Positions 3,398 to 60,811 of a stretch of 64,000 nt of DNA are shown piece after piece. How positions within the stretch are numbered: the first letter of the stretch is position 1; each line of letters starts with the position of its first letter. The DNA is from Chlorobiota bacterium (lineage in GTDB: Bacteria; Bacteroidota; Ignavibacteria; OLB7). The stretch is from contig JAGWAZ010000001.1 of assembly GCA_021296135.1 (NCBI GenBank), positions 1,908 through 65,907 on the forward strand, read 5' to 3'. A model generated the notes under the pieces. That model did no database searches, was not told the origin of the DNA, and was given only the letters and a program-made list of their open reading frames with translations. Both the position numbers and the translations under genes were made by a program.

Positions 3398-5103
3398 AAT
3401 CGGTGCGATGTCCCTGGATAGTCCCAATCGTTCTTCTGATCTCCGGCAGTTTCCAGGCATTCGGTCAGGCTCACGGTGAGCACGACGACCATCTTCACTC
3501 TCTGATCGATGGTGATTATCCTGTCTGTGGGACACATCTCATGTGGCAACTTCAAGTAAACGAGGAGAAACTTGATGATAAGGGAAGGGAATTGCTGCGC
3601 CAGTATCGCGTAACCGATCAGCCGACCATGCAGCGCAACATCGTCAGCTATGACGGGCACTTCAGAATCCACTACGACATTGATGGCAAACATGCTCCAA
3701 GCCCTGTTGATCAGGATAGCAACGGTATTCCCGATTATATCGACTCGGTCGATTTCTATATGGAACTGGCCTGGAAGAAGGAGATTGAGGAATGTGGATT
3801 TGCTCCTCCACCCCCGGATAACATCCGTCCCGGTGTGGGTGGAATAGATGGTCTCGTCGATGTCTTTGTACAGGCACTCTCCAACAGTATCTACGGTTTT
3901 GCTCTACCGGAACCGGGCGGAGAGATTGGTTCAAGAAGCGTTGGCTACCTTATTCTTGACAACGATTATGTCGGATATCCGACTCCCGGTATCGCCGGAC
4001 TGCGCGTTACGAGCGCACATGAATTTCATCATATTGTGCAGTTCGGTGCATATATCAACGACTATTCACAGGGAGCAATTTTCGAAGCGACGTCGACATG
4101 GATGGAATTCAAAGTACATCCCGATCTGACCGATTATCGCCTCTATTTCAATAGATTCCTCAAGCAACCACATGCCTTCTCGTTCGCTACCAACGACGTA
4201 AGCGATGGCATCACAGGATATGCTCATATGCACTACCTGCAATCTCTCGTTCAACAGCTTGACCCCAAGATTGTCAGGGAAATATGGGATCAGTTCAAAA
4301 GCAGTGGAAAGGCCTTTGATGCAATCGATGCCACACTTCGAGCCCGGAATGCCGGAATCAACCTGACCAACAGCTTTTGCACGTTTGCACGATGGAGCTA
4401 CTTCACTGGTTCAAACGCAGTCGATACAATGTTCTTCGCAAAAGCTGATCTCTATCCAACTATCAGATCAGTCTCAACCTTGATTCTCGACGAAGACCTG
4501 GAGAAAGTGATTCCGAACTCCCTCTCCCCACTTTCATTTGGCTTGTGGAGACTCGTTGTGCCTCGTTCCGATCAGTTCGACCCGGACACAGTTGATTTCC
4601 TGATAACAAACGCTCGATCAATGCTCGGGACCGGCGGCCCTTCGGTCAGTAGACCGGAAGACTTCACACTCTTTGTCAGTCAGTCGCCTCGGGGTGGCTA
4701 CACACCAATACTCTACCGTAACGACACACTCTACTATCGACTCGATGCTCCTCACCAGGACTTTTGCGTTGAGACATTCTTCAACGGTAGCCGCGGCATT
4801 CTGGTTACTGTCAACCCTTTGCCTCAACCCTTTGTGAATGATGGAGCCGACCAGATGGTGTTCGCTGTAGACCTGAGCGGTATCGCCATCACGAGAGTGG
4901 AGCTTGACATCTATTCGGCATCAATGACAAAAGTTGCCCGAGTTGAGAGAAATGGCCTTGAGACTCGGGAGAATGTTCAAGGCGTTATCTGGGATGGCAG
5001 GACATCTTCGGGAGAATTTGCCCCAAGTGGTGTCTATATCTATACGCTTGCGATCAATGGCAGCGCACCATCGGTCGGGAAATTTGCTGTTGTCAGGAAA
5101 TGA
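3394..5103 (+). CDS. Secreted HExxH zinc metallopeptidase-like protein with a T9SS C-terminal sorting domain. Family unassigned.
   Basis: N-terminal signal peptide. SAHEFHHIVQFGAY carries HExxH. The C-terminal ~80 aa (...GVIWDGRTSSGEFAPSGVYIYTLAINGSAPSVGKFAVVRK) matches the Por_Secre_tail pattern. Confidence 0.55.
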   Translation: MKSVRCPWIVPIVLLISGSFQAFGQAHGEHDDHLHSLIDGDYPVCGTHLMWQLQVNEEKLDDKGRELLRQYRVTDQPTMQRNIVSYDGHFRIHYDIDGKHAPSPVDQDSNGIPDYIDSVDFYMELAWKKEIEECGFAPPPPDNIRPGVGGIDGLVDVFVQALSNSIYGFALPEPGGEIGSRSVGYLILDNDYVGYPTPGIAGLRVTSAHEFHHIVQFGAYINDYSQGAIFEATSTWMEFKVHPDLTDYRLYFNRFLKQPHAFSFATNDVSDGITGYAHMHYLQSLVQQLDPKIVREIWDQFKSSGKAFDAIDATLRARNAGINLTNSFCTFARWSYFTGSNAVDTMFFAKADLYPTIRSVSTLILDEDLEKVIPNSLSPLSFGLWRLVVPRSDQFDPDTVDFLITNARSMLGTGGPSVSRPEDFTLFVSQSPRGGYTPILYRNDTLYYRLDAPHQDFCVETFFNGSRGILVTVNPLPQPFVNDGADQMVFAVDLSGIAITRVELDIYSASMTKVARVERNGLETRENVQGVIWDGRTSSGEFAPSGVYIYTLAINGSAPSVGKFAVVRK

Positions 5104-5744
5104 ACAAGGGGCGGACCAATGGAGTAAAAACTCTGCAAATCATCTCCGATAAGGTATGCAAAGCATACGATCTGCGTCCTGTTCTGACCGATATCTCTCT
5201 TACCATTGAACGTGGAACCACACTCGGAATAACCGGTCGCAACGGCTCTGGAAAATCGACGCTGCTAAAGATCCTTGCAAACGTTCTTGAAAAGACCTCA
5301 GGAAGCGTTGAGTGGATGATTGGCAATGAGCGTATCAAGGAAGAAACGTTGCCCAGACACCTCGGCTATGTAGCTCCCTATCTCGAACTCTACTTGGAGT
5401 TCTCCATCGTTGAGCTGCTTAAAATTCTTGGCCGGATTCGTGGAGTGTCACCCGATATGGACTATGTCTCTCATCTCCTTGAACGCTTTGAGCTCGCCGA
5501 CAGAACCAAAGAGAGGATTGAGTCGTTCAGTTCCGGAATGCGGCAGCGCGTAAAGTATATTCTTGCGCTTTCACACCACCCGGACTTCCTGATGCTCGAC
5601 GAGCCAATGACAAATCTGGACGAGGACGGACAGGCTATTGTCCGGAAAACGATCTCACGTGAAGCGTTCGAAAGAATTACTGTGATTGCAACGAACGAAA
5701 AGGAAGACCTAAGTCTCTGCACACACCGGATTTCGCTTGATTGA
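5100..5744 (+). CDS. ABC transporter ATP-binding protein with no adjacent permease
   Basis: Walker A GRNGSGKST, signature FSSGMRQR, Walker B FLMLDE. Overlaps the preceding gene by 4 bp. Confidence 0.75.
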   Translation: MNKGRTNGVKTLQIISDKVCKAYDLRPVLTDISLTIERGTTLGITGRNGSGKSTLLKILANVLEKTSGSVEWMIGNERIKEETLPRHLGYVAPYLELYLEFSIVELLKILGRIRGVSPDMDYVSHLLERFELADRTKERIESFSSGMRQRVKYILALSHHPDFLMLDEPMTNLDEDGQAIVRKTISREAFERITVIATNEKEDLSLCTHRISLD

Positions 5745-5796
5745 GATTCGAGAGGTGGGTGTGAGATATGAGTAATGAGCAAACGTAGTATAGGAC

Positions 5797-5877
5797 TATC
5801 AGCTTTCAGCTTTGACTCTCGACCGCTTGACTCTTAGACTCACGACTCACGACGCTTCGACCCTCGACTCCTACAGC
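5797..5877. repeat. CGACTC-rich dispersed repeat, copy 1
   Basis: Sequence cagctttgactctcgaccgcttgactcttagactcacgactcacgacgcttcgaccctcgactcc. It shares CCCTCGACTC/GACTCTT cores with the copies at 13566, 23960 and 59238. Confidence 0.6.
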
Positions 5878-6066
5878 ATCGCACGTACGAAGTACAGCCG
5901 AGACATTGTGTGGATCGTGGACATCTTCGAGGAGAAGATGGAGATCAAACTGGTGTTGTTCCAGAACGCGCCGCAATCGCTCTACGCGACGGACAGTACG
6001 GTTTGTCTTCGCATCAATCGCAACCGATTCATCGAAGCCGAGCCGGTCGTTAGGCTTCTTCACCAC
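5806..6066 (-). pseudogene. trmH: Truncated N-terminal stub of a SpoU/TrmH-family tRNA/rRNA 2'-O-methyltransferase. Only ~60 conserved residues remain; the stub ends inside the repeat.
   Basis: ...RLRRVLEQHQFDLHLLLEDVHDPHNVSAVLRTCDAVGVEG matches the TrmH N-terminal motif (RQPDL..VHKPHNVSAIIRTADAVGV). The ORF stops after 86 aa, whereas full-length TrmH is ~220 aa. The remaining sequence is repeat followed by an opposing gene. Confidence 0.55.
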
Positions 6067-9986: not shown

Positions 9987-10147
9987 AACGTTTGATAATG
10001 ATTATATCTAATAAGAAAACTTCGGAATAATAATCAAATCGGCATCAGGAAAGAAGAGGAGAACGAAAAAGAGCGCAGTACACAAAGATTCAGCATTAAC
10101 CTGAAAGCCCACTACTTTCTTACCTTACACTTTTACCTTTCTACCTT

Positions 10148-11395
10148 TTAATTTCTAACTTTCTCTGCCACCATTGAGATCCCCGTTTTGTCTGGCAACA
10201 AATACCTTTGCTGATACTCAATAGCCCCTTGCTGCAAAAAAGCTCCCTCGAACTGACCTCCATCTAAGTACTGTTTCTCTACCTGTCGAATCGCTCTATT
10301 GGAACTGAGCGAAGGGGCGGCACGATAGCATTGACATGTCCCTTGAATCAACATGCTGTCATTCATAACCACACCCTCTGCCAGCAGAACAGGCAACAGT
10401 GCATTGATAATGATATCGCTTGCTCGGGATGTTCCGATCAACGATTTTGAGCCAAAGCGAACAAGAAAAAGACCTCTGATCTCTTTGTACGGGCAATTTG
10501 ATGCGATTAACCGTGCGGCGTTTGTAAGTAGATCGTCGTTGTAAAGATCATAGACCAACTTTCCGCCAGCCCATATTCGTCGCTCCGGAGTGTTTGCAGG
10601 CCGCACTCTAAAATTCCACTCTGGGTCGACCGGATGGTCAGCTTCGGAGGGCAATATACTTCGCAAACGCGACTCGGATACGAATCTGGAAGCGACCGCC
10701 GTCAGGCGTTCAACCGGCAGACCGGATTGCGAAAAAAGATGAGAAAGGATCTCGTCAAACGTTGCCCCGATCAGTCTGTGACGGCCTGCAAAAAGCCTCT
10801 CGGCCACGCGTTTCATTGGTCCACGATTTGCGCTGAATCCAAGAGCATCGAATAGCCGGTACAGGAATTCGCGTTCTATTTGTAAGTCGTTGGTCAAACG
10901 CGGCTCTCTGCGGATAGCCTCGATTGCCCGGCACAGAAGTCGGCTCCAGGCCAACTCAACAAGGGGTTGTAGTGATAACTTCTTCTCCCCAAAGCTGAAA
11001 TCACTCGTCTCTTCTTTCTTCTCGTTTGAATCACGCCTGAGTACAATCGTTGGAATATCTAACCGAAGTCGTGCCTCATCAGGTGCCTGGGCCAATACGT
11101 GCAGAATAACATTGGAATATACGGGGTCTTCATGATGTTTGTGTGTGAACCAGTCCGATTCCCTCATGTGCATTTCAACCGGTCCGACAAACATGTTGCC
11201 GTCGATAAGAAGGATCCCGTTGAGGAAGTCGGGACCATCGGATTTGTTCCTCACACCGGGTGATAACAGACTAATTCTCTCTCCAGTAAGAGCATGAAAT
11301 GTGGTTCCGGGAACCGGAAGTTTCTGCCAGATAGTAAGCAGGTCATCTTCACAACCGATGGTGCGACCACAATCGATGGGTCCGGATGATTTCAT
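10148..11395 (-). CDS. DUF2851-family protein
   Basis: N-terminus ...LSPGVRNKSDGPDFLNGILLIDGNMFVGPVEMHMRESDWFTHKHHEDPVYSNVILHV is characteristic of Bacteroidota DUF2851. Confidence 0.55.
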   Translation of the reverse strand: MKSSGPIDCGRTIGCEDDLLTIWQKLPVPGTTFHALTGERISLLSPGVRNKSDGPDFLNGILLIDGNMFVGPVEMHMRESDWFTHKHHEDPVYSNVILHVLAQAPDEARLRLDIPTIVLRRDSNEKKEETSDFSFGEKKLSLQPLVELAWSRLLCRAIEAIRREPRLTNDLQIEREFLYRLFDALGFSANRGPMKRVAERLFAGRHRLIGATFDEILSHLFSQSGLPVERLTAVASRFVSESRLRSILPSEADHPVDPEWNFRVRPANTPERRIWAGGKLVYDLYNDDLLTNAARLIASNCPYKEIRGLFLVRFGSKSLIGTSRASDIIINALLPVLLAEGVVMNDSMLIQGTCQCYRAAPSLSSNRAIRQVEKQYLDGGQFEGAFLQQGAIEYQQRYLLPDKTGISMVAEKVRN

Positions 11396-12800: not shown

Positions 12801-13562
12801 TCAGTACAAAGGTTGAAAGGCCGAGTTCTCATAATCGACATGGATCAGCGATAATCCCGTTGTCGGAGCCGCAACGCTTTGTCGCGACCTATCCTTTGAT
12901 TTCAATATTTCAGGCACTTCCTCTGCCCCACGAGCTCCCCTACCCACATCATACTGAACTCCTACCAGCAACCGCACCATTCCATAGAGAAACCTGTTTG
13001 CAGTAATGTGGAAGTCAAGGTGGATCCCACCATCATGCCATTGAGCGGAATAGACCTCACAAACTGCGTCCGGAGTGTCGGGATTGTGCTTGGAGAGGGC
13101 TGTATAATCATGCGTTCCCCTGAAGTACAAAGCGACATCGTTCATTGTGTTTACGTCGAGTTCAAAAGGGAGATACCAGGCATAGCGTGCTAAGAAAGGA
13201 TCCGGCTTTCTGATGATTCGGTAGCGGTAACTCCGCCTGCGGGCTGAATAGCGAGCATGGAATTCATCATCGACCGTTGAGAGGTTGGCTATTACGAGGT
13301 CGGAAGGAGACATACGCTGGAGGGCCTTGAGCAACTGGTCGTCGTCATAGCGTGTGCCCAGGTCTGCATGAGCAACCTGACCGTAAGCGTGTACGCCTGA
13401 GTCTGTCCTGCCCGCTCCCACTATCGTGATAGATCTATCGCCGCAGAGCCTTGATAACATTGTCTCAATGACCTCTTGCACAGTCCGGCCGCTTCCCTGT
13501 CGCTGCCAGCCAAGGAAATCAGTTCCGTCATACATGATCTGCATTGCAACTCTGCGCATCAT
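12801..13562 (-). CDS. truA: tRNA pseudouridine(38-40) synthase
   Basis: IMYDGTDFLGWQRQ and GAGRTDSGVHA motifs. The N-terminus is intact. Confidence 0.9.
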   Translation of the reverse strand: MMRRVAMQIMYDGTDFLGWQRQGSGRTVQEVIETMLSRLCGDRSITIVGAGRTDSGVHAYGQVAHADLGTRYDDDQLLKALQRMSPSDLVIANLSTVDDEFHARYSARRRSYRYRIIRKPDPFLARYAWYLPFELDVNTMNDVALYFRGTHDYTALSKHNPDTPDAVCEVYSAQWHDGGIHLDFHITANRFLYGMVRLLVGVQYDVGRGARGAEEVPEILKSKDRSRQSVAAPTTGLSLIHVDYENSAFQPLY

Positions 13563-13565
13563 AAC

Positions 13566-13632
13566 GTCAGCTCTTTGACCCCCGACTCTTCAACCCTCGA
13601 CTCTTTGACCCCCGACTCTTCGACTTCAACCC
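13566..13632. repeat. CGACTC-rich dispersed repeat, copy 2. It is internally a ~31-bp direct repeat, placed immediately upstream of the truA start.
   Basis: Sequence tcagctctttgacccccgactcttcaaccctcgactctttgacccccgactcttcgacttcaaccc. Confidence 0.6.
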
Positions 13633-13633
13633 A

Positions 13634-13666
13634 CAAAAAAACGCAGTCTACAGAGGAGACTGCGCC
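13634..13666 (-). terminator. Rho-independent terminator of rpmF
   Basis: Minus strand reads CGCAGTCTcctctgtAGACTGCG (8-bp perfect stem, 7-nt loop) followed by TTTTTTTG, 25 nt after the rpmF stop. Confidence 0.7.
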
Positions 13667-22039: not shown

Positions 22040-22109
22040 CTTGGTAAGGGTATCGTATCAATCGTTCGCTTATCATTCATGCAGGCAAGATGTCCGCGCT
22101 CTGCATTTC

Positions 22110-22802
22110 TCATCCCTCATTCCTCATCCCTTCAATCTCCTCCCATCCATCCAGTCGTTCACGAGGAGGCAATGCTTGCAAGAGATTGACAATCAACTCA
22201 GTATTCGTTTGCAATTCTTCAAGATTCCCGTTGTTTTTGATGACAACGTCAGCACGCCTTACTTTTTCTTCAGCAGGGATTTGCATCGCGTCCCGCTTAC
22301 GAATCTCTTCTACATCAACTCCGTCTCGCTCGGCAGCCCGCCTGAAGCGGAGATCAACGTCTGCATCAACAACAACGATATAATCGAACCGTTCCTCGCC
22401 CCCTGACTCATAAATCAGGGCTGCTTCACAAACAACAATCGAGGCCCCGTTGTCAATTACTTCTTTCGCTCTGATCCCTTGCTCGGCAATTGTTCGCGGG
22501 TGAACAATTTCGCTCAGCTTCTGAAGGCGTTCACGATCATTGAAGACCAATTCAGCAAGACGTTTACGATCGAGCCTCCCATCGGAGTAAACACTCTTGC
22601 CAAACTCACGGAGAATTGCATCCTTCATCGAAGGATCATTCTGCATAAGCTCTTTGGCAATAGCATCCGCACTCAAGACCGGGATGCCCGCTTTCCGAAA
22701 CAGATCGGCCACTTGTGACTTTCCGGCACCAATTGATCCGGTAAGGCCAATCAGCAGATACTCTCCATCCCCCTGATTCTTTTGCATACTCATCGGACGC
22801 AA
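22110..22802 (-). CDS. coaE: Dephospho-CoA kinase
   Basis: LIGLTGSIGAGKSQV P-loop with CoaE-like length. Confidence 0.8.
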   Translation of the reverse strand: MRPMSMQKNQGDGEYLLIGLTGSIGAGKSQVADLFRKAGIPVLSADAIAKELMQNDPSMKDAILREFGKSVYSDGRLDRKRLAELVFNDRERLQKLSEIVHPRTIAEQGIRAKEVIDNGASIVVCEAALIYESGGEERFDYIVVVDADVDLRFRRAAERDGVDVEEIRKRDAMQIPAEEKVRRADVVIKNNGNLEELQTNTELIVNLLQALPPRERLDGWEEIEGMRNEG

Positions 22803-43540: not shown

Positions 43541-43696
43541 TTGTTCTATCCTTTAGGGATTCAATTCTATTTTCAACGTAGCAAGAATATAGAAGGTAGT
43601 AGGTAGCATAGAGGAAGAAATAAACTATCCTATGCTACATTTCACCTTCTATTTCCTACCTTCTTTCCGAATGTTGAAATTACCAATTACAGACCG

Positions 43697-51767: not shown

Positions 51768-51871
51768 GTATCCCTGATATGAATAAAGTATGTTAGTACC
51801 TTCTCTCCTGCGAGGATCACCCGGATCACTGTGCTAAAGCAGGGCGCTAACTTGTAGAGTTCTCTACGCTT

Positions 51872-51927
51872 ACTTTGCACTTCTAACTTCCTACTTCCAA
51901 CTTCTAACTTCCTACTTCTAACTTCCA
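51872..51927. repeat. Heptamer tandem repeat (ACTTCNA/ACTTCCT) x7-8. On the atp coding strand it reads GGAAGTAGAAGTTAGAAGTTGGAAGTAGGAAGTTAGAAGT.
   Basis: Plus strand reads acttcta acttcct acttcca acttcta acttcct acttcta acttcca. It lies ~110 nt upstream of the atpB start and overlaps the last codons of the atpI-like gene. Confidence 0.7.
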
Positions 51928-52295
51928 ACGTGTTTGGACATGACCTTGACAAGAAAGACAATTTCCTGAATCAGAAAGACGAAATAGAATCCCAACAGGA
52001 AGAAGGTCAATGTCTGCGGATCAAATCCCTCGGTCAATAAATAGGCAAAGACCAGCAGCATTATCAACACCCGTGCTCCCATCCCCCCGAAGTATGCAGC
52101 CATGAAGACGAAGTTCTCTTTATCTATCGACCACTCAATAATCCACAACCCGACAACAGCATTGATAAAGGCCATAGCGCCGGCAGCATATATGGCGCTT
52201 CGAGTATCATCGAACCAAGCAATAACCGGGTACGCAAGTAAGGCTGCCAGAATACCGGCCAGTATCAGAACCGGTTTCGGGAAACGGAATCTCAT
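51918..52295 (-). CDS. atpI: ATP synthase protein I-like small membrane protein
   Basis: 125-aa, 4-TM hydrophobic protein immediately upstream of atpB. Confidence 0.45.
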   Translation of the reverse strand: MRFRFPKPVLILAGILAALLAYPVIAWFDDTRSAIYAAGAMAFINAVVGLWIIEWSIDKENFVFMAAYFGGMGARVLIMLLVFAYLLTEGFDPQTLTFFLLGFYFVFLIQEIVFLVKVMSKHVGS

Positions 52296-58060: not shown

Positions 58061-59014
58061 TTATCGATTAAGCAACACATAGTTGTGAAACCCACCAATC
58101 TGTCTCCCACCAAGCACCCCTTGTTCCAGGGCTGTCAGCAGCCTGTACTTCAACCGCTCATGTTTCTGTTTAGAACGATTTGTCTGTCTGTCCCGCTTTC
58201 CATAGTTCAACTCTCCTCCCCAATCAAAATCGGCGATCCGTTCGTTCATTACCCCAGGATGAGTCCCCTCAAACCGGGTTAAGAGCCCAAGTGGGCCGTA
58301 GTCAAACTGTTTCTCACGGTCGCGATAGAGTTCCTCGGCCTGTGCCTTCCCTTTGTGAATTGTATCGAGCGCACGGTTTTTATTCTGCATTGTGTACGGA
58401 GGACGGACCCAGCCGTAATGAAAGATCCGTGCATCGACTGAAGCAACACTGAGTTTGTACGTTCCCTCCTGTTGACGATAGTTACGCCCGTCAAAGCCAG
58501 GTATACGTCGGAACGACTGAGCCGATTCCCAAGAGTGAATATCAGGGTCGTTCCGCACAATCCGAATTTCGTGTGGATACCATCCGTGAGAGCGATGGTA
58601 ATGATAATAATCACCCCAGAAGTGTAGATATCTAAACAGAAGACCCTCTACCTCACGATCCTCCAGCAACTCTCTGCATCGTGATTCGATGATATGCACA
58701 TCATCTTCATGCACTACCTCATCAGCTTGCAGATAAAAGAGCCAATCACCACTACAGGCGGCTTTTGCTACATCGGTCTGATGGGCATTCTCAGTGCCAT
58801 TCGGGTAACGCTCAAGATCCCAAACAGTATTGATCACTCGGATTTTATTCGACCCGATGGCATCAATCTCCTCTTGCGTTCTGTCATCCAAATCACAATC
58901 TCCCAACGCAACCACAAACTCATCAACAATCGGAAGTATTGAACGGATAGACTGACCTATTGGATAATAGAGTTTTAAGGCGTTCCTCACCATTGTGAAG
59001 CCACTGATTTTCAT
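58061..59014 (-). CDS. Glycosyltransferase family 2-like protein
   Basis: N-terminal FTMVRNALK...VDEFVVALGDCD...WLFYLQADEV pattern is typical of the small GT2-like proteins annotated in Bacteroidota. Confidence 0.5.
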   Translation of the reverse strand: MKISGFTMVRNALKLYYPIGQSIRSILPIVDEFVVALGDCDLDDRTQEEIDAIGSNKIRVINTVWDLERYPNGTENAHQTDVAKAACSGDWLFYLQADEVVHEDDVHIIESRCRELLEDREVEGLLFRYLHFWGDYYHYHRSHGWYPHEIRIVRNDPDIHSWESAQSFRRIPGFDGRNYRQQEGTYKLSVASVDARIFHYGWVRPPYTMQNKNRALDTIHKGKAQAEELYRDREKQFDYGPLGLLTRFEGTHPGVMNERIADFDWGGELNYGKRDRQTNRSKQKHERLKYRLLTALEQGVLGGRQIGGFHNYVLLNR

Positions 59015-59074
59015 ACGCTCAGACTTGTTTCTGGTTTTGATATTGCTATCATGCTTCCTTCATCGTATGCGTGT

Positions 59075-59770
59075 TTAGAAGTAACGCTCAGTTATCATCC
59101 CGGCAGTAATTTTTCCAGAAAGGATAACCAGCGGGATCCCACCTCCAGGATGAACACTCCCTCCAACCATGTAGAAGTTCTCTAACTCCTTACGATGGTT
59201 TCCCTGACGGAAGAAAGCCGAGAGCATAGAACTTTCAGCCATCAGCTTTCGATCCCCGACTCTTAACCCTCGACTCATACTTTCAACTCTCAGTTATGAG
59301 CTTTCAGCTCTCGATCCCCGACTCTCGACCCTCGACTCATGTTTGACGAAGCCCCATAGATTGCTCCGTCGACGGCATGATAACGCTCTTGAAGTTCATA
59401 AAATGTTATCAACGATTGCGACAGGATGCAAGGTTGAACTCCAAACTGTGCGAGACGATCCCAGACTAACCTTGCCGATTCGCTTTTGTACTCTTCATTC
59501 TCGAAAAGATCGGCTCGCGATGGAGCATTCACCAGAAGGTACCAGTTCTTTTCCGGCTCCCTTGCAAGAGATTCATCGCTGTGCGATGAGATCGAACGAT
59601 AGATTATCATCTCTTGAGGTAAACCCGAGCTTACCGAGCATGGGCAAAAGCTTGGCATTGCGAAATGAGAATACCTGATGTACTCCCCGGAACGGACTGA
59701 ATAGGAAACAAAACACCCATCCCCTAACTTTCTACTTCCTATATTCTATTCCGTCAAACTCACTTTATCG
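59075..59770 (-). pseudogene. Remnant of a phytoene desaturase (CrtI)-family FAD oxidoreductase. Only the C-terminal ~200 aa survive. It carries a frameshift and is interrupted by a tandem CGACTC-family repeat. The N-terminal ~300 aa are absent.
   Basis: Segments ...NWYLLVNAPS...LITFYELQERYHAVDGAIYGASSNM | [repeat] | ...SSMLSAFFRQGNHRKELENFYMVGGSVHPGGGIPLVILSGKITAGMI align to the CrtI C-terminus (...YYVLAPVP...FRDQLNAYHGSAFSVEPVLTQSAWFRPHNRDKTITNLYLVGAGTHPGAGIPGVIGSAKATAGLM). The repeat replaces the region between them. oppB starts 100 bp beyond on the opposite strand. Confidence 0.55.
59238..59340. repeat. CGACTC-rich dispersed repeat, copy 3: two tandem ~59-bp units inside the crtI-like remnant
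   Basis: Sequence cagctttcgatccccgactcttaaccctcgactcatac ... cagctctcgatccccgactctcgaccctcgactcatg. Confidence 0.65.
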
Positions 59771-59872
59771 AGAAGGGGTCTTATGATACTTGCATAGAGA
59801 GCCATCCCCTCACTATCTTCGTTTTGTTCGGGGGAAAAGGAAGATACCCCGATTTGTTTTTGATCACGACCT

Positions 59873-60811
59873 ATGACCACATATATCATTCGGCAGAGCA
59901 TTTACGCGGTCTTTATTATTCTGGGAGTGCTGACTGTCACGTTTTGCATTATCCGGATACTCCCCGGTGATCCGACTCGACTTGCACAGGGACAGCGTGC
60001 GGACCTCCAGTCGATGGAAGCGCTTAAGAAGGAATGGAAGCTTGATAAGCCGATTTACGTTCAGTATGTATACTTCCTCTCGAATGCCATTCAAGGCGAT
60101 TTCGGTCGAAGCTACTCAACAAATCGTCCGGTTACAGAATCGATTCTCGAACGGATTCCACGAACTGCACTCCTGGCCGTCAGTGCAATGGTTCTTGCAA
60201 CGATCATCGGCGTCCTCATCGGTATTCTATCAGCCTGGAAACCCTATACGCTCTTCGACAACGCAGCAATGGTCTTTGCGTTGCTCGGCATTTCGGTCCC
60301 GGTCTTTGTGCTCGGCGCCCTCTTCGTTCTTTTCTTCACTGAAAAGATGCACTTGATTGGGGGGACGGGATATATCACCGAGTTAAACAGAGTACAACTC
60401 GATCGTTTGATTCTCCCGATGGCTGCTCTGGCTGCACGTCCCCTTTCCATCTTTGCCCGCATTACCCGGAGTTCCATGCTCGACACAATGAGCATGGACT
60501 ACATCCGAACGGCCCGTGCAAAAGGGGTCTCGGAGCAGAAGACGATTCTGACTCATGCACTTAGGAATGCCCTGAACCCTGTTGTTACAACGATATCGGC
60601 TTGGCTTGCAGCAACTCTTGCTGGCACATTCTTTATCGAACAGATTTTTAACTGGCCCGGTGTCGGGCTGTTGGCATTCAACGCAGTCACACAGTATGAC
60701 TTCCCTATAATCCAGGGAGTCGTCATCTTTACAGCAATCATTTTTGTCGTTGTCAACCTCATCGTCGACATCATATACTCGTTCCTCGATCCACGAGTTC
60801 GACTTGGATAA
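59873..60811 (+). CDS. oppB: Oligopeptide/dipeptide ABC transporter permease (OppB/DppB family)
   Basis: 312 aa. BPD_transp_1 EAA-like motif ...IRTARAKG.... Confidence 0.8.
   Translation: MTTYIIRQSIYAVFIILGVLTVTFCIIRILPGDPTRLAQGQRADLQSMEALKKEWKLDKPIYVQYVYFLSNAIQGDFGRSYSTNRPVTESILERIPRTALLAVSAMVLATIIGVLIGILSAWKPYTLFDNAAMVFALLGISVPVFVLGALFVLFFTEKMHLIGGTGYITELNRVQLDRLILPMAALAARPLSIFARITRSSMLDTMSMDYIRTARAKGVSEQKTILTHALRNALNPVVTTISAWLAATLAGTFFIEQIFNWPGVGLLAFNAVTQYDFPIIQGVVIFTAIIFVVVNLIVDIIYSFLDPRVRLG

What the first reader, a model, noticed from the sequence alone, without database searches (positions are those of the whole stretch)
59075..59770. CrtI-like phytoene-desaturase-family gene reduced to a C-terminal remnant with a tandem repeat inserted
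Two ORF fragments align colinearly to the C-terminal third of CrtI-type FAD oxidoreductases, including the conserved ...LYLVGAGTHPGAGIPGV... region, here FYMVGGSVHPGGGIPLV. They are separated by two tandem units of the CGACTC repeat, which translate as junk (SRGSRVGDRELKAHN).

Further upstream there is a frame change. The N-terminal FAD-binding half is missing because oppB begins 100 bp away.

The repeat sits in place of the SAWFRPHNRDK segment. The flanking codons (..ASSNM | repeat | ..SSMLSAFF) look partially duplicated, which may reflect a degraded target-site duplication.
Basis: partly seen in the sequence, partly recalled or inferred. Interest (0 to 1): 0.5.

Follow-up and report, generated by a model that had tools for sequence, protein, structure and literature searches.

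The report
Dead carotenoid desaturase gene with repeat insertion
This is the decayed leftover of a carotenoid-desaturase (CrtD/CrtI-family) gene in an uncultured Chlorobi/Kapabacteria-like bacterium seen in metagenomes that appear to come from sponges: two deletions and a 110-base insertion of short 7-base repeats destroyed it, which is an ordinary kind of gene loss.

Summary
The locus is a real, non-functional remnant of a phytoene-desaturase-family (CrtD-like) gene on the minus strand. Relatives (e.g. Candidatus Kapaibacterium sp.) carry an intact 464-490 aa gene in exactly this slot, between oppB and a conserved GT-like gene.

Only about 36% of the gene survives here:
- Codons ~139-169 (59710-59618).
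- Codons ~347-439 (59622-59341).
- Codons ~440-489 plus the native stop (59230-59075).

There are three lesions:
- A 5' deletion removes codons 1-138, which include the FAD-binding fold.
- A ~539-nt internal deletion has a junction compatible with 7-8 nt of microhomology.
- A 110-nt insertion (59340-59231) sits exactly between N439 and S440.

The insertion is about 16 degenerate heptads (AGTCGAG-like), organised as a 62-nt and a 48-nt unit. It has no target-site duplication, no inverted ends and no significant fold. It belongs to a class of heptad arrays that fills intergenic DNA in this genome.

Ten independent metagenomic contigs show the same indel structure, so it is not a sequencing artefact. 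SNP density is about 3 times that of the flanking genes, and one SNP changes G to E in the HPGGG motif.

The claimed TSD, the "repeat replaces SAWFRPHNRDK" statement and the simple upstream "frame change" are wrong.

The parts
59873..60811 (+). oppB-like permease gene (intact), the divergent neighbour of the dead gene
   Evidence: ORF of 312 aa. Pfam BPD_transp_1_N/BPD_transp_1 in all contigs. 73-87% identical to the relatives' oppB. 0 SNPs among 9 contigs.
59737..59872 (-). Native oppB-crtD intergenic region, with a conserved hairpin and a conserved block next to oppB
   Evidence: 78% identical over 137 nt to the L013 spacer. Aligns with L010, L012 and L014.
59711..59736 (-). Breakpoint zone of the 5' deletion. 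It lies within a purine-rich heptad-like stretch (59708-59749).
   Evidence: Homology to L013 ends at 59737. Homology to the orthologs' codon 139 starts at 59710. Period-7 signal at 59708-59749.
59618..59710 (-). Remnant fragment 1: codons ~139-169 of the ancestral gene (FLFSPFRGVHQVFSFRNAKLLPMLGKLGFT)
   Evidence: tblastn gives 65-71% identity to L010 aa 139-169, L012 aa 138-169 and L014 aa 112-143, E 2e-9 to 4e-9.
59615..59622 (-). Junction of the ~539-nt internal deletion (codons ~170-346 lost). The 8 nt TTACCTCA read as ortholog-matching residues in both frames, which suggests microhomology.
   Evidence: The two tblastn HSPs overlap here. Codon comparison with L010, L012 and L014.
59341..59622 (-). 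Remnant fragment 2: codons ~347-439 (LPQEMIIY...GAIYGASSN), with no internal stop
   Evidence: tblastn gives 47-51% identity to ortholog aa 346/347-439. NCBIfam CrtD/CrtID profile positions 342-437.
59231..59340 (-). 110-nt insertion of ~16 degenerate heptads (AGTCGAG-like on the minus strand, CTCGACT on the plus strand). Unit A is 59279-59340 (62 nt) and unit B is 59231-59278 (48 nt).
   Evidence: The core occurs twice against 0 expected. TRF finds period 14/7 and there is a period-7 signal. The units are 34/37 identical over their first 37 nt (read from the sequences printed). The orthologs show an uninterrupted N-S-(M/I) at this site. 110 mod 3 = 2, which explains the frame change.
59075..59230 (-). 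Remnant fragment 3: codons ~440-489 (SMLSAFFRQGNHRKELENFYMVGGSVHPGGGIPLV...ERYF) plus the native stop at 59075-59077
   Evidence: tblastn gives 64-67% identity to ortholog aa 437-489. NCBIfam CrtD profile 440-485, E 2e-15.
59015..59074 (-). Native spacer between the dead gene and the GT-like gene
   Evidence: Sequence. The orthologous spacers are 70-160 nt.
58061..59014 (-). Intact, highly conserved GT-like gene (317 aa), the downstream same-strand neighbour in all relatives
   Evidence: 73-78% identical to the relatives' copy. Only a weak Glyco_tranf_2_4 Pfam hit. 1 synonymous SNP.
13566..13635 (-). Related array of the same GAGTCGAGGGT...AGAGTCGGGG subfamily, ending a few nt before the first ATG of ORF 12801-13562
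   Evidence: Reciprocal weak nhmmer hits. Matches the pattern used, and L037 is this site. Sequence.
5789..5873 (-). Related array of the same subfamily between two convergent genes
   Evidence: Reciprocal weak nhmmer hits. Sequence.

Best explanation
The locus is a unitary pseudogene. Its ancestor was a ~1.47-kb gene for a CrtD-like member of the phytoene-desaturase (CrtI) family. That gene sat between oppB and a conserved GT-like gene, on the same strand as the latter.

In this lineage the gene suffered three lesions:
- (1) A deletion running from the upstream intergenic region into codon ~138, which removed the start codon and the FAD-binding Rossmann fold.
- (2) A ~539-nt internal deletion of codons ~170-346. 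This is most simply explained by slipped mispairing or illegitimate recombination between two copies of a 7-8 nt sequence (TTACCTC).
- (3) A 110-nt insertion of a degenerate heptanucleotide array exactly between codons 439 and 440.

The result cannot encode an enzyme. The two short ORFs that gene callers report (106/122 aa and 67 aa) are by-products.

The inserted array is not a transposon. It is one of many short-period arrays that occupy non-coding DNA in this genome and change length by whole heptads. I infer that it arose by non-homologous or template-switch copying from such an array and/or local slippage, followed by a block duplication that produced units A and B.

Shown: the family assignment, synteny, the anatomy of the lesions, fixation across populations, and elevated polymorphism. 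Inferred: the deletion mechanism, the origin of the array, the order of the events, and lack of expression.
For: Family:
- The reconstructed C-terminal 145 aa matches NF042421 CrtD (E 8.5e-26) and TIGR02734 crtI_fam (E 1.3e-19) at profile positions 345-490, and PDB 4REP and 4DGK.

Synteny:
- L010 (Ca. Kapaibacterium sp.), L011, L012 and L014 have an intact 464-490 aa Amino_oxidase/DAO gene between oppB and the GT-like gene.
- The L010 protein scores 360.8 bits on TIGR02734, above the cut-off of 238.1.

Anatomy:
- Three tblastn HSPs fall at ortholog aa 139-169, 347-439 and 440-489, in frames -1, -2 and -1.
- A protein alignment and a codon-level comparison place the insertion at N|SM.

Not an artefact:
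- The window and 8 contigs from different samples and assemblers are identical in length over the 858-nt spacer.
- A further GenBank metagenome contig, L043, carries the repeat region.

Relaxed constraint:
- 8 SNPs fall in the 858-nt spacer against 28 in the other 9,543 nt (binomial P = 0.008).
- Within the fragments there are 3 nonsynonymous and 2 synonymous SNPs, including G to E in HPGGG. The flanking genes have 9 nonsynonymous and 16 synonymous.

Array class:
- Periods 7, 14 and 15 are enriched about 7-fold or more over shuffles, at several intergenic sites.
- The atpB-upstream array differs by exactly 35 nt (5 heptads) between strains.
- The only non-self nhmmer hits of the insertion in ~130 kb are two other arrays on the same strand.
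Against: - The surviving fragments have no internal stop codons. They are as similar to the orthologs (56-60%) as the intact L010 gene is to L012 and L014 (59-61%). Decay is therefore recent, and sequence alone does not show long neutral drift.
- The SNP counts are small.
- I could not scan the rest of the 3.4-Mb genome. I cannot say whether an intact paralog exists, whether the carotenoid pathway as a whole is lost, or how many copies of the array family exist.
- The similarity of the insertion to the other two arrays is weak (nhmmer E 0.06-1.4).
- The array in the pseudogene shows no length polymorphism.
- Transcription was not tested.
Confidence: 0.88

Rival explanations
1. The 110-nt block is a miniature mobile element (MITE-like or IS-derived) that transposed into the gene and left a degraded target-site duplication.
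For: - The insertion is precise: no codon was lost at the site.
- Related sequence occurs at two other places in the window, all in the same orientation.
- The trinucleotide ATG occurs at the start of both units and just after the block (read).
Against: - There are no terminal inverted repeats, and the fold is not significant (z = -0.6).
- The proposed TSD matches at 6 of 15 positions, and its parts are either repeat-internal or native codons.
- The other copies are only loosely similar and differ in length and heptad content (nhmmer E 0.06-1.4).
- The block is internally a degenerate period-7 array like many unrelated-sequence arrays in the genome.
- The exact-pattern scans found no further copies outside this organism's own two loci.
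Confidence: 0.08
2. The remnant is retained because it now serves the downstream GT-like gene. Transcription from the surviving native promoter region reads through the dead gene, so the remnant acts as a long 5' leader. The purine-rich heptad array, on the sense strand 217 nt upstream of the GT start, acts like the arrays found upstream of other genes, for example as a binding platform for S1, Csp or another RNA- or DNA-binding factor.
For: - The dead gene and the GT-like gene are adjacent on the same strand in every relative, 70-160 nt apart.
- The native upstream region (59737-59872) survives and contains a weak sigma-70-like match on the minus strand at 59771-59743.
- Five of seven other arrays in the window are purine-rich on the sense strand, a few to ~130 nt upstream of an ORF start.
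- MacGregor 2015 (PMC4679880) reports heptamer arrays in 'forward' orientation upstream of start codons in Beggiatoaceae, Cyanobacteria and Bacteroidetes and proposes post-transcriptional regulation.
Against: - There is no expression data.
- The closest relative, L013, keeps the GT-like gene with a different 597-nt spacer and no remnant or array, so neither is required.
- SNP density in the spacer is elevated, which argues against strong constraint.
- The promoter scan is only a consensus match and does not cover FCB-type promoters. No TAnnTTTG motif lies near the locus.
Confidence: 0.15
3. The short ORFs are real genes. The insertion created a new start (ATG at 59278), so that a 67-aa protein carrying the C-terminal CrtI segment, or the 106-aa piece, is made and has a new function.
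For: - Both ORFs are called by gene finders in most contigs, and NCBI annotates the 106-aa one as a hypothetical protein.
- The fragments have no internal stops.
Against: - The 51 native residues are a closing segment of the FAD-binding fold and have no known independent function (my knowledge of the CrtI fold; 4DGK).
- A G to E change in the invariant HPGGG motif and an M/V change segregate in the population. Overall there are 3 nonsynonymous to 2 synonymous SNPs, at 3-fold elevated density.
- The N-terminal 16 residues are translated repeat.
- The closest relative, L013, has none of it.
Confidence: 0.03
4. The frame breaks are sequencing or assembly errors, and a continuous gene exists.
For: None found.
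Against: - The window and 8 contigs from HiFi, Illumina, JGI and Logan assemblies of different samples have the same 858-nt spacer with no indels. A further GenBank contig, L043, carries the repeat region.
- About 950 nt of the gene are simply absent, which is not a matter of single-base errors.
Confidence: 0.01

Closest known systems
CrtD-type 1-hydroxycarotenoid 3,4-desaturase / phytoene desaturase family (TIGR02734; structures 4REP and 4DGK)
   Same: The surviving pieces align colinearly to profile positions ~139-169 and 345-490, including the C-terminal ...VGGxxHPGxGxPxV... motif. Syntenic orthologs in relatives are full members (TIGR02734, 360.8 bits).
   Different: About 64% of the gene is missing, including the GxGxxG FAD-binding fold and the central substrate-binding part. 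The reading frame is broken twice. The remnant scores 70 bits against a cut-off of 238. Even the intact orthologs fall below the CrtD equivalog cut-offs (379 against 500), so the exact reaction is unknown.
Unitary pseudogenes produced by relaxed selection
   Same: Multiple independent lesions, an intact ortholog at the same position in relatives, complete loss in a sister lineage (L013), elevated polymorphism, and mis-annotation as small hypothetical proteins.
   Different: The host association is only inferred from sample names that appear to be sponge metagenomes (JGI contig prefix 'PetF'), and Kapabacteria MAGs are reported from Petrosia ficiformis in PMC12648040. Loss of the wider carotenoid pathway was not tested.
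Intergenic heptamer direct-repeat arrays: TAACTGA repeats of Beggiatoaceae, Cyanobacteria and Bacteroidetes (MacGregor 2015, PMC4679880), and cyanobacterial STRR heptamers (from memory: Mazel et al. 1990)
   Same: Period 7. Arrays of a few to ~16 units. Mostly intergenic and often in 'forward' orientation just upstream of start codons. Relatives have the same gene neighbourhood without the array. No known mechanism of spread. One heptad of unit A is literally TAACTGA.
   Different: The units here are degenerate (GAGTCGA, GGGTCGA, GAGCTGA, GAGTTGA and others) rather than exact. Different arrays in the genome use different heptads (for example TGGAAGT at atpB). This array lies inside a dead coding sequence, which gives an exact empty-site comparison.
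MITEs and REP-like dispersed repeats
   Same: Short, non-coding and dispersed, with copies at several intergenic sites.
   Different: No inverted termini, no target-site duplication, no stable hairpin, and the copies are not near-identical.

Membership tests
Phytoene desaturase (CrtI/CrtD) family, TIGR02734 | Whole-protein score above the curated cut-off (238.1 bits) | tested here: not met
   The reconstructed C-terminal 145 aa scores 70.3 bits. The intact syntenic ortholog in L010 scores 360.8 bits.
Phytoene desaturase (CrtI/CrtD) family, TIGR02734 | N-terminal dinucleotide-binding (GxGxxG) FAD fold | tested here: not met
   tblastn with three full-length orthologs finds nothing for aa 1-138 in the locus or anywhere in the 64-kb window.
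Phytoene desaturase (CrtI/CrtD) family, TIGR02734 | Conserved C-terminal FAD-contact motif (..VGGxxHPGxGxPxV..SG..) | tested here: met
   FYMVGGSVHPGGGIPLVILSGK aligns to 4REP and 4DGK and to profile positions 440-485. A G/E polymorphism sits in the motif.
Phytoene desaturase (CrtI/CrtD) family, TIGR02734 | Descent from a family member (orthology by conserved gene order) | tested here: met
   oppDCB | crtD-like | GT-like | 207-aa gene | ppiD order in L010, with the intact gene in the same slot in L011, L012 and L014. 56-60% identity over the surviving columns.
Pseudogene | Disrupted reading frame and loss of essential domains | tested here: met
   Three fragments in two frames, about 950 nt missing and 110 nt foreign.
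Pseudogene | Relaxed selective constraint relative to neighbours | tested here: met
   SNP density 9.3 per kb against 2.9 per kb, P = 0.008. 3 nonsynonymous to 2 synonymous, against 9 to 16 in the flanking genes. The counts are small.
Pseudogene | No functional product (transcript or protein) | not testable with these tools
   No expression data are available.
MITE / transposon insertion | Target-site duplication flanking the insert | tested here: not met
The insert boundaries are fixed by colinearity with the orthologs (N439|S440).
MITE / transposon insertion | Terminal inverted repeats or a stable hairpin | tested here: not met
   The fold of 59225-59346 (minus strand) gives z = -0.6. The whole block is purine-rich on one strand.
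MITE / transposon insertion | Many near-identical copies in the genome | tested here: inconclusive
   Only two loosely related arrays in 64 kb. The organism is absent from genome contigs, and the metagenome scan returned only its two known loci. The whole genome was not available.
Heptamer direct-repeat arrays (TAACTGA/STRR type) | Tandem units of 7 nt | tested here: met
   TRF finds periods 7 and 14 at 59308-59338. Period-7 autocorrelation at 59278-59351, at a threshold where shuffles give 0.3 hits.
Heptamer direct-repeat arrays (TAACTGA/STRR type) | Predominantly intergenic, oriented with the downstream gene | tested here: met
   True for the other arrays in the window. This one lies in dead coding DNA, on the sense strand upstream of the GT-like gene.
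Heptamer direct-repeat arrays (TAACTGA/STRR type) | Length variation in whole units between strains | tested here: inconclusive
   The atpB-upstream array differs by 35 nt = 5 units between contigs. The array in the pseudogene shows only 2 SNPs and no length change in 9 contigs.

The most novel reading that the evidence does not exclude
The pseudogene gives an exact before-and-after view of how the lineage's heptad arrays arise. A ~16-unit array appeared at a single phosphodiester bond inside formerly coding DNA, with no duplication or loss of target bases. This would imply an active, templated mechanism that seeds such arrays in any DNA released from selection. Candidates are template switching or repair synthesis copying from another array, or an unknown enzyme with a 7-nt register. 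The arrays might also be recruited as 5'-leader elements for the next gene downstream.
Probability: 0.2. Interest if true: 0.5.

Novelty: new member of a known kind. Interest (0 to 1): 0.25.

Why it matters
The practical consequences are modest:
- Two 'hypothetical proteins' annotated at this locus (the 106-aa J4G05_00290 and a 67-aa ORF) are pieces of one dead gene and should be flagged as a pseudogene.
- This lineage, and independently or further its closest sampled relative, has lost a CrtD-like carotenoid desaturase that related Kapaibacteria keep. That would fit relaxed selection on pigments, but it needs a pathway-wide check.
- The more general interest is the inserted DNA. Degenerate heptanucleotide arrays are abundant in this clade's intergenic regions and change length by whole units. 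Here one of them has a cleanly defined insertion site, which is rare evidence about how such arrays, long known but unexplained in cyanobacteria, Beggiatoaceae and Bacteroidetes, get to new places.

Tried and rejected
- **Pfam on the raw ORF fragments:** no hits even at E = 10. PF01593 covers the C-terminus poorly, so this is not evidence against the family. NCBIfam and PDB searches succeeded.
- **My first guess about the upstream piece:** I took GVHQVFSFRN... to be the HHxxFF segment just before codon 347, making the break a simple frameshift. tblastn rejected this and placed the piece at ortholog aa 139-169.
- **Genome-contig scan with the repeat core:** it returned only unrelated bacteria, mostly Zoogloea. 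The organism is not among the GTDB representatives, so no genome-wide copy number could be obtained.
- **Metagenome-contig scan:** it returned only this organism's two known sites plus unrelated high-GC bacteria.
- **RNA explanations:** no Rfam match in 58900-60000 at E <= 1. There is no significant fold of the insertion (z = -0.6) or of the 5738-5878 array (z = -0.2).
- **Promoter and terminator scan:** uninformative. No Bacteroidetes-type TAnnTTTG motif lies near the locus.
- **Residual crtD homology in the L013 spacer:** none found by tblastn or sensitive blastn.
- **Test for an intact paralog elsewhere in the genome:** not possible. No second CrtI-family match with E below 0.2 exists in the 64-kb window.
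- **Third protein database search:** not run, because a distant paralog would not appear among the 120 best hits.
Full report
**What is in the sequence**

On the minus strand, between the GT-like gene (58061-59014) and the divergently transcribed oppB (59873-60811), lie two ORFs in different frames: 59290-59658 (122 aa) and 59075-59278 (67 aa). Between and overlapping them are two copies of a CGACTC-containing unit. The 27-nt core CGATCCCCGACTCTNRACCCTCGACTC occurs at 59250 and 59312, with none expected by chance. Pfam finds nothing in the raw ORFs.

With the repeat-derived residues removed, the joined sequence matches two solved structures:
- Gamma-carotene desaturase 4REP, residues 342-485 of 495 (E 2e-18).
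- CrtI 4DGK, residues 340-489 of 501 (E 1e-10).

The two pieces also match the NCBIfam CrtD and crtI_fam profiles at positions 345-437 and 440-485. The family assignment and the colinearity are therefore confirmed.

**Where it comes from, and whether it is an artefact**

The neighbouring GT-like protein is found, residue for residue, on 18 contigs from ENA, NCBI, JGI and Logan assemblies. One of them is a 3.4-Mb contig, and NCBI names the organism 'Chlorobi bacterium' (locus tags J4G05_). One sample has the JGI contig prefix 'PetF', which suggests the sponge Petrosia ficiformis. Kapabacteria MAGs are reported from that sponge (PMC12648040). The host link is an inference.

Eight of these contigs and the window have the same 858-nt spacer, with 8 substitutions and no indel. 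A further GenBank metagenome contig (L043) carries the repeat region. Sequencing error is excluded.

**Synteny**

Relatives whose GT-like protein is 73-78% identical keep the same gene order. They carry an intact 464-490 aa Amino_oxidase/DAO-domain gene in exactly this slot, on the GT strand:
- L010, Candidatus Kapaibacterium sp. GCA_050248595.1
- L011
- L012
- L014

The L010 protein scores 360.8 bits on TIGR02734 (crtI_fam), above the cut-off of 238.1. It is nearest to the CrtD equivalogs but below their cut-offs.

The relative closest by oppB (L013, 87% identical) has a 597-nt spacer with no trace of the gene. Only the 136 nt next to oppB align with the window.

**Anatomy of the remnant**

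tblastn with the three full-length orthologs gives three pieces:

| Piece | Window coordinates | Ortholog residues | Identity |
|---|---|---|---|
| 1 | 59710-59618 | 139-169 | 65-71% (E about 2e-9) |
| 2 | 59622-59341 | 347-439 | 47-51% |
| 3 | 59230-59078 | 440-489 | 64-67% |

The native stop follows piece 3 at 59075-59077.

The 8 nt at the junction (TTACCTCA, 59622-59615) read as ortholog-matching residues in both frames..F-T-S and L-P-Q... This is what a deletion between two short direct repeats would leave. That reading is an inference, because the ancestral sequence is unknown.

Codons 1-138 are absent from the locus and from the window. Homology to the L013 intergenic region ends at 59737, so the left breakpoint of the 5' deletion lies in 59711-59736.

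The orthologs read ..GAIYG-SSN-S(M/I)-FSAF.. and the window reads ..GAIYGASSN-[110 nt]-SM-LSAFF... The insertion is therefore 59340-59231, with no codon lost or gained. It does not replace the SAWFRPHNRDK segment, whose counterpart SAFFRQGNHRK follows it. Its length (110 mod 3 = 2) accounts for the second frame change.

It mixes repeat-internal bases (GCTGAAAGT) with native codons (TCT ATG). There is no target-site duplication.

**State of decay**

The fragments contain no internal stops. Their identity to the orthologs (56-60%) equals that of the intact L010 gene to L012 and L014 over the same columns (59-61%). The lesions are therefore evolutionarily recent.

Polymorphism points to relaxed constraint:
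- 8 of the 36 SNP positions in a 10.4-kb population alignment fall in the 858-nt spacer (9.3 per kb against 2.9 per kb; binomial P = 0.008).
- Within the fragments there are 3 nonsynonymous and 2 synonymous SNPs. One turns the invariant HPGGG into HPEGG in five of nine sequences.
- The flanking genes show 9 nonsynonymous and 16 synonymous SNPs.

The counts are small, but together with the loss of the FAD-binding fold they make a functional product very unlikely.

**The inserted DNA**

On the minus strand the block reads as about 16 degenerate heptads: AGTCGAG GGTCGAG AGTCGGG GATCGAG AGCTGAA AGCTCAT AACTGAG AGTTGAA ... These are arranged as a 62-nt unit and a 48-nt unit. The two units are 34/37 identical over their first 37 nt and differ by 14 nt, which is two heptads (read from the sequences printed; TRF period 14/7).

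The block has no inverted ends, no significant fold (z = -0.6) and no Rfam match.

Its only other nhmmer matches in about 130 kb of this genome and its relatives are two arrays in the window, at 5795-5868 and 13566-13605. Both are on the same strand, the scores are weak, and the hits are reciprocal (sequences).

More generally, periods 7, 14 and 15 are enriched about 7-fold or more over shuffles in the window. Arrays with different heptads lie at 10113-10171, 22085-22160, 43564-43625, 51854-51945 and 59708-59749. They are mostly purine-rich on the sense strand, a few to about 130 nt upstream of an ORF start. The relative L010 has its own arrays.

The atpB-upstream array is exactly 35 nt (five heptads) shorter in two contigs. 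An octamer array just beyond the window end differs by 8 and 24 nt between contigs. These arrays are therefore dynamic, consistent with slippage.

The literature describes comparable unexplained heptamer arrays, often just upstream of start codons. In some of those cases the relatives have the same neighbourhood without the array. They occur in Beggiatoaceae, Cyanobacteria and Bacteroidetes (MacGregor 2015, PMC4679880). Cyanobacterial STRR heptamers are a further parallel (from my memory, not checked here).

**Searches that did not extend the picture**

The organism is not in the genome-contig collection. The metagenome scan found only its two known sites, plus unrelated high-GC bacteria. In those bacteria GAGTCGA-type heptads form the arms of a long hairpin right after a stop codon (fold z = -4.2). 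I regard that as a separate phenomenon.

I could not count the array family genome-wide, and I could not test for an intact paralog outside the 64-kb window.

**Verdict**

This is a genuine, recently decayed and population-fixed pseudogene of a CrtD-like phytoene-desaturase-family gene. It was broken by two deletions and by the insertion of a heptad array.

Several details are not: the replaced segment, the TSD, the simple frameshift, and the missed third fragment with its internal deletion.

As a gene-loss event it is ordinary. The one point of wider interest is the cleanly resolved insertion site of a heptanucleotide array, a class of repeat whose mode of origin is unknown.

Noticed in passing
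window 5740-5873, 10113-10171, 13555-13638, 22085-22160, 43564-43625, 51854-51945, 59708-59749: Degenerate heptanucleotide arrays, each with its own heptad, occupy many intergenic regions. They are mostly purine-rich on the sense strand, a few to ~130 nt upstream of an ORF start. The array at 13566-13635 ends a few nt before the first ATG of ORF 12801-13562, whose N-terminus looks TruA-like to me. Periods 7, 14 and 15 are enriched about 7-fold or more over shuffles.
   Followed up: partly
window 51879-51929 (= L002 17088-17122): The TGGAAGT/TAGAAGT array upstream of the ATP-synthase A-subunit gene is exactly 35 nt (5 heptads) shorter in contigs L005 and L006 than in L001-L004. This is a copy-number polymorphism in whole units.
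   Followed up: partly
L002 2219-2430, ~3990-4060 and 4800-4858 (beyond the window's 3' end): A long octamer array (CCTTGTCT/CCCTGTCC, ~240 nt) lies near Por_Secre_tail genes. It differs by 24 and 8 nt between L001 and L002, and shorter copies lie nearby. L004, L005 and L006 lack several kb here.
   Followed up: no
window 59783-59860: The region just upstream of oppB holds a hairpin (CGGGG..loop..CCCCCG) and the block CGAAGATAGTGAGGGGATGG. Both are conserved in L010 and L013 and partly in L012 and L014. This may be a leader or regulatory element of the opp operon. No Rfam match.
   Followed up: no
L030, L033, L034, L036, L038-L040, L042 (also L032): Unrelated high-GC bacteria carry GAGTCGA-type heptads as two inverted arms around a small GC hairpin, directly after a stop codon. 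The L034 region folds with z = -4.2. This looks like a heptad-built terminator-like or REP-like element.
   Followed up: partly
L013 5229-5825: The closest sampled relative (oppB 87% identical) has lost the crtD-like gene completely. Its 597-nt spacer aligns with the window only over the 136 nt next to oppB. The spacer contains the motif GCTAAAGCAGGGTGCTAA, which also occurs at window 51833-51850.
   Followed up: partly
window 59290-59607 and 59075-59278 (minus strand): Gene callers report the remnant as two small proteins of 106 aa and 67 aa. NCBI annotates the 106-aa one (J4G05_00290) as a hypothetical protein rather than part of a pseudogene.
   Followed up: yes
window 58061-59014 (minus strand): The GT-like neighbour is 64-78% identical across many Bacteroidota, Kapaibacteria, Cloacimonadota and other MAGs. 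It has no NCBIfam match and only a sub-threshold Pfam hit to Glyco_tranf_2_4. It is a very conserved protein of unknown function that stays next to the crtD-like gene in this clade.
   Followed up: no
proteins P0012, P0025, P0037, P0060, P0074, P0083 and P0105: Many of the best database matches to the C-terminal remnant are 130-230 aa proteins on long contigs (96 kb to 725 kb). They are therefore not cut by contig ends. C-terminal fragments of CrtI-family genes may be common as remnants or mis-calls in other genomes.
   Followed up: no
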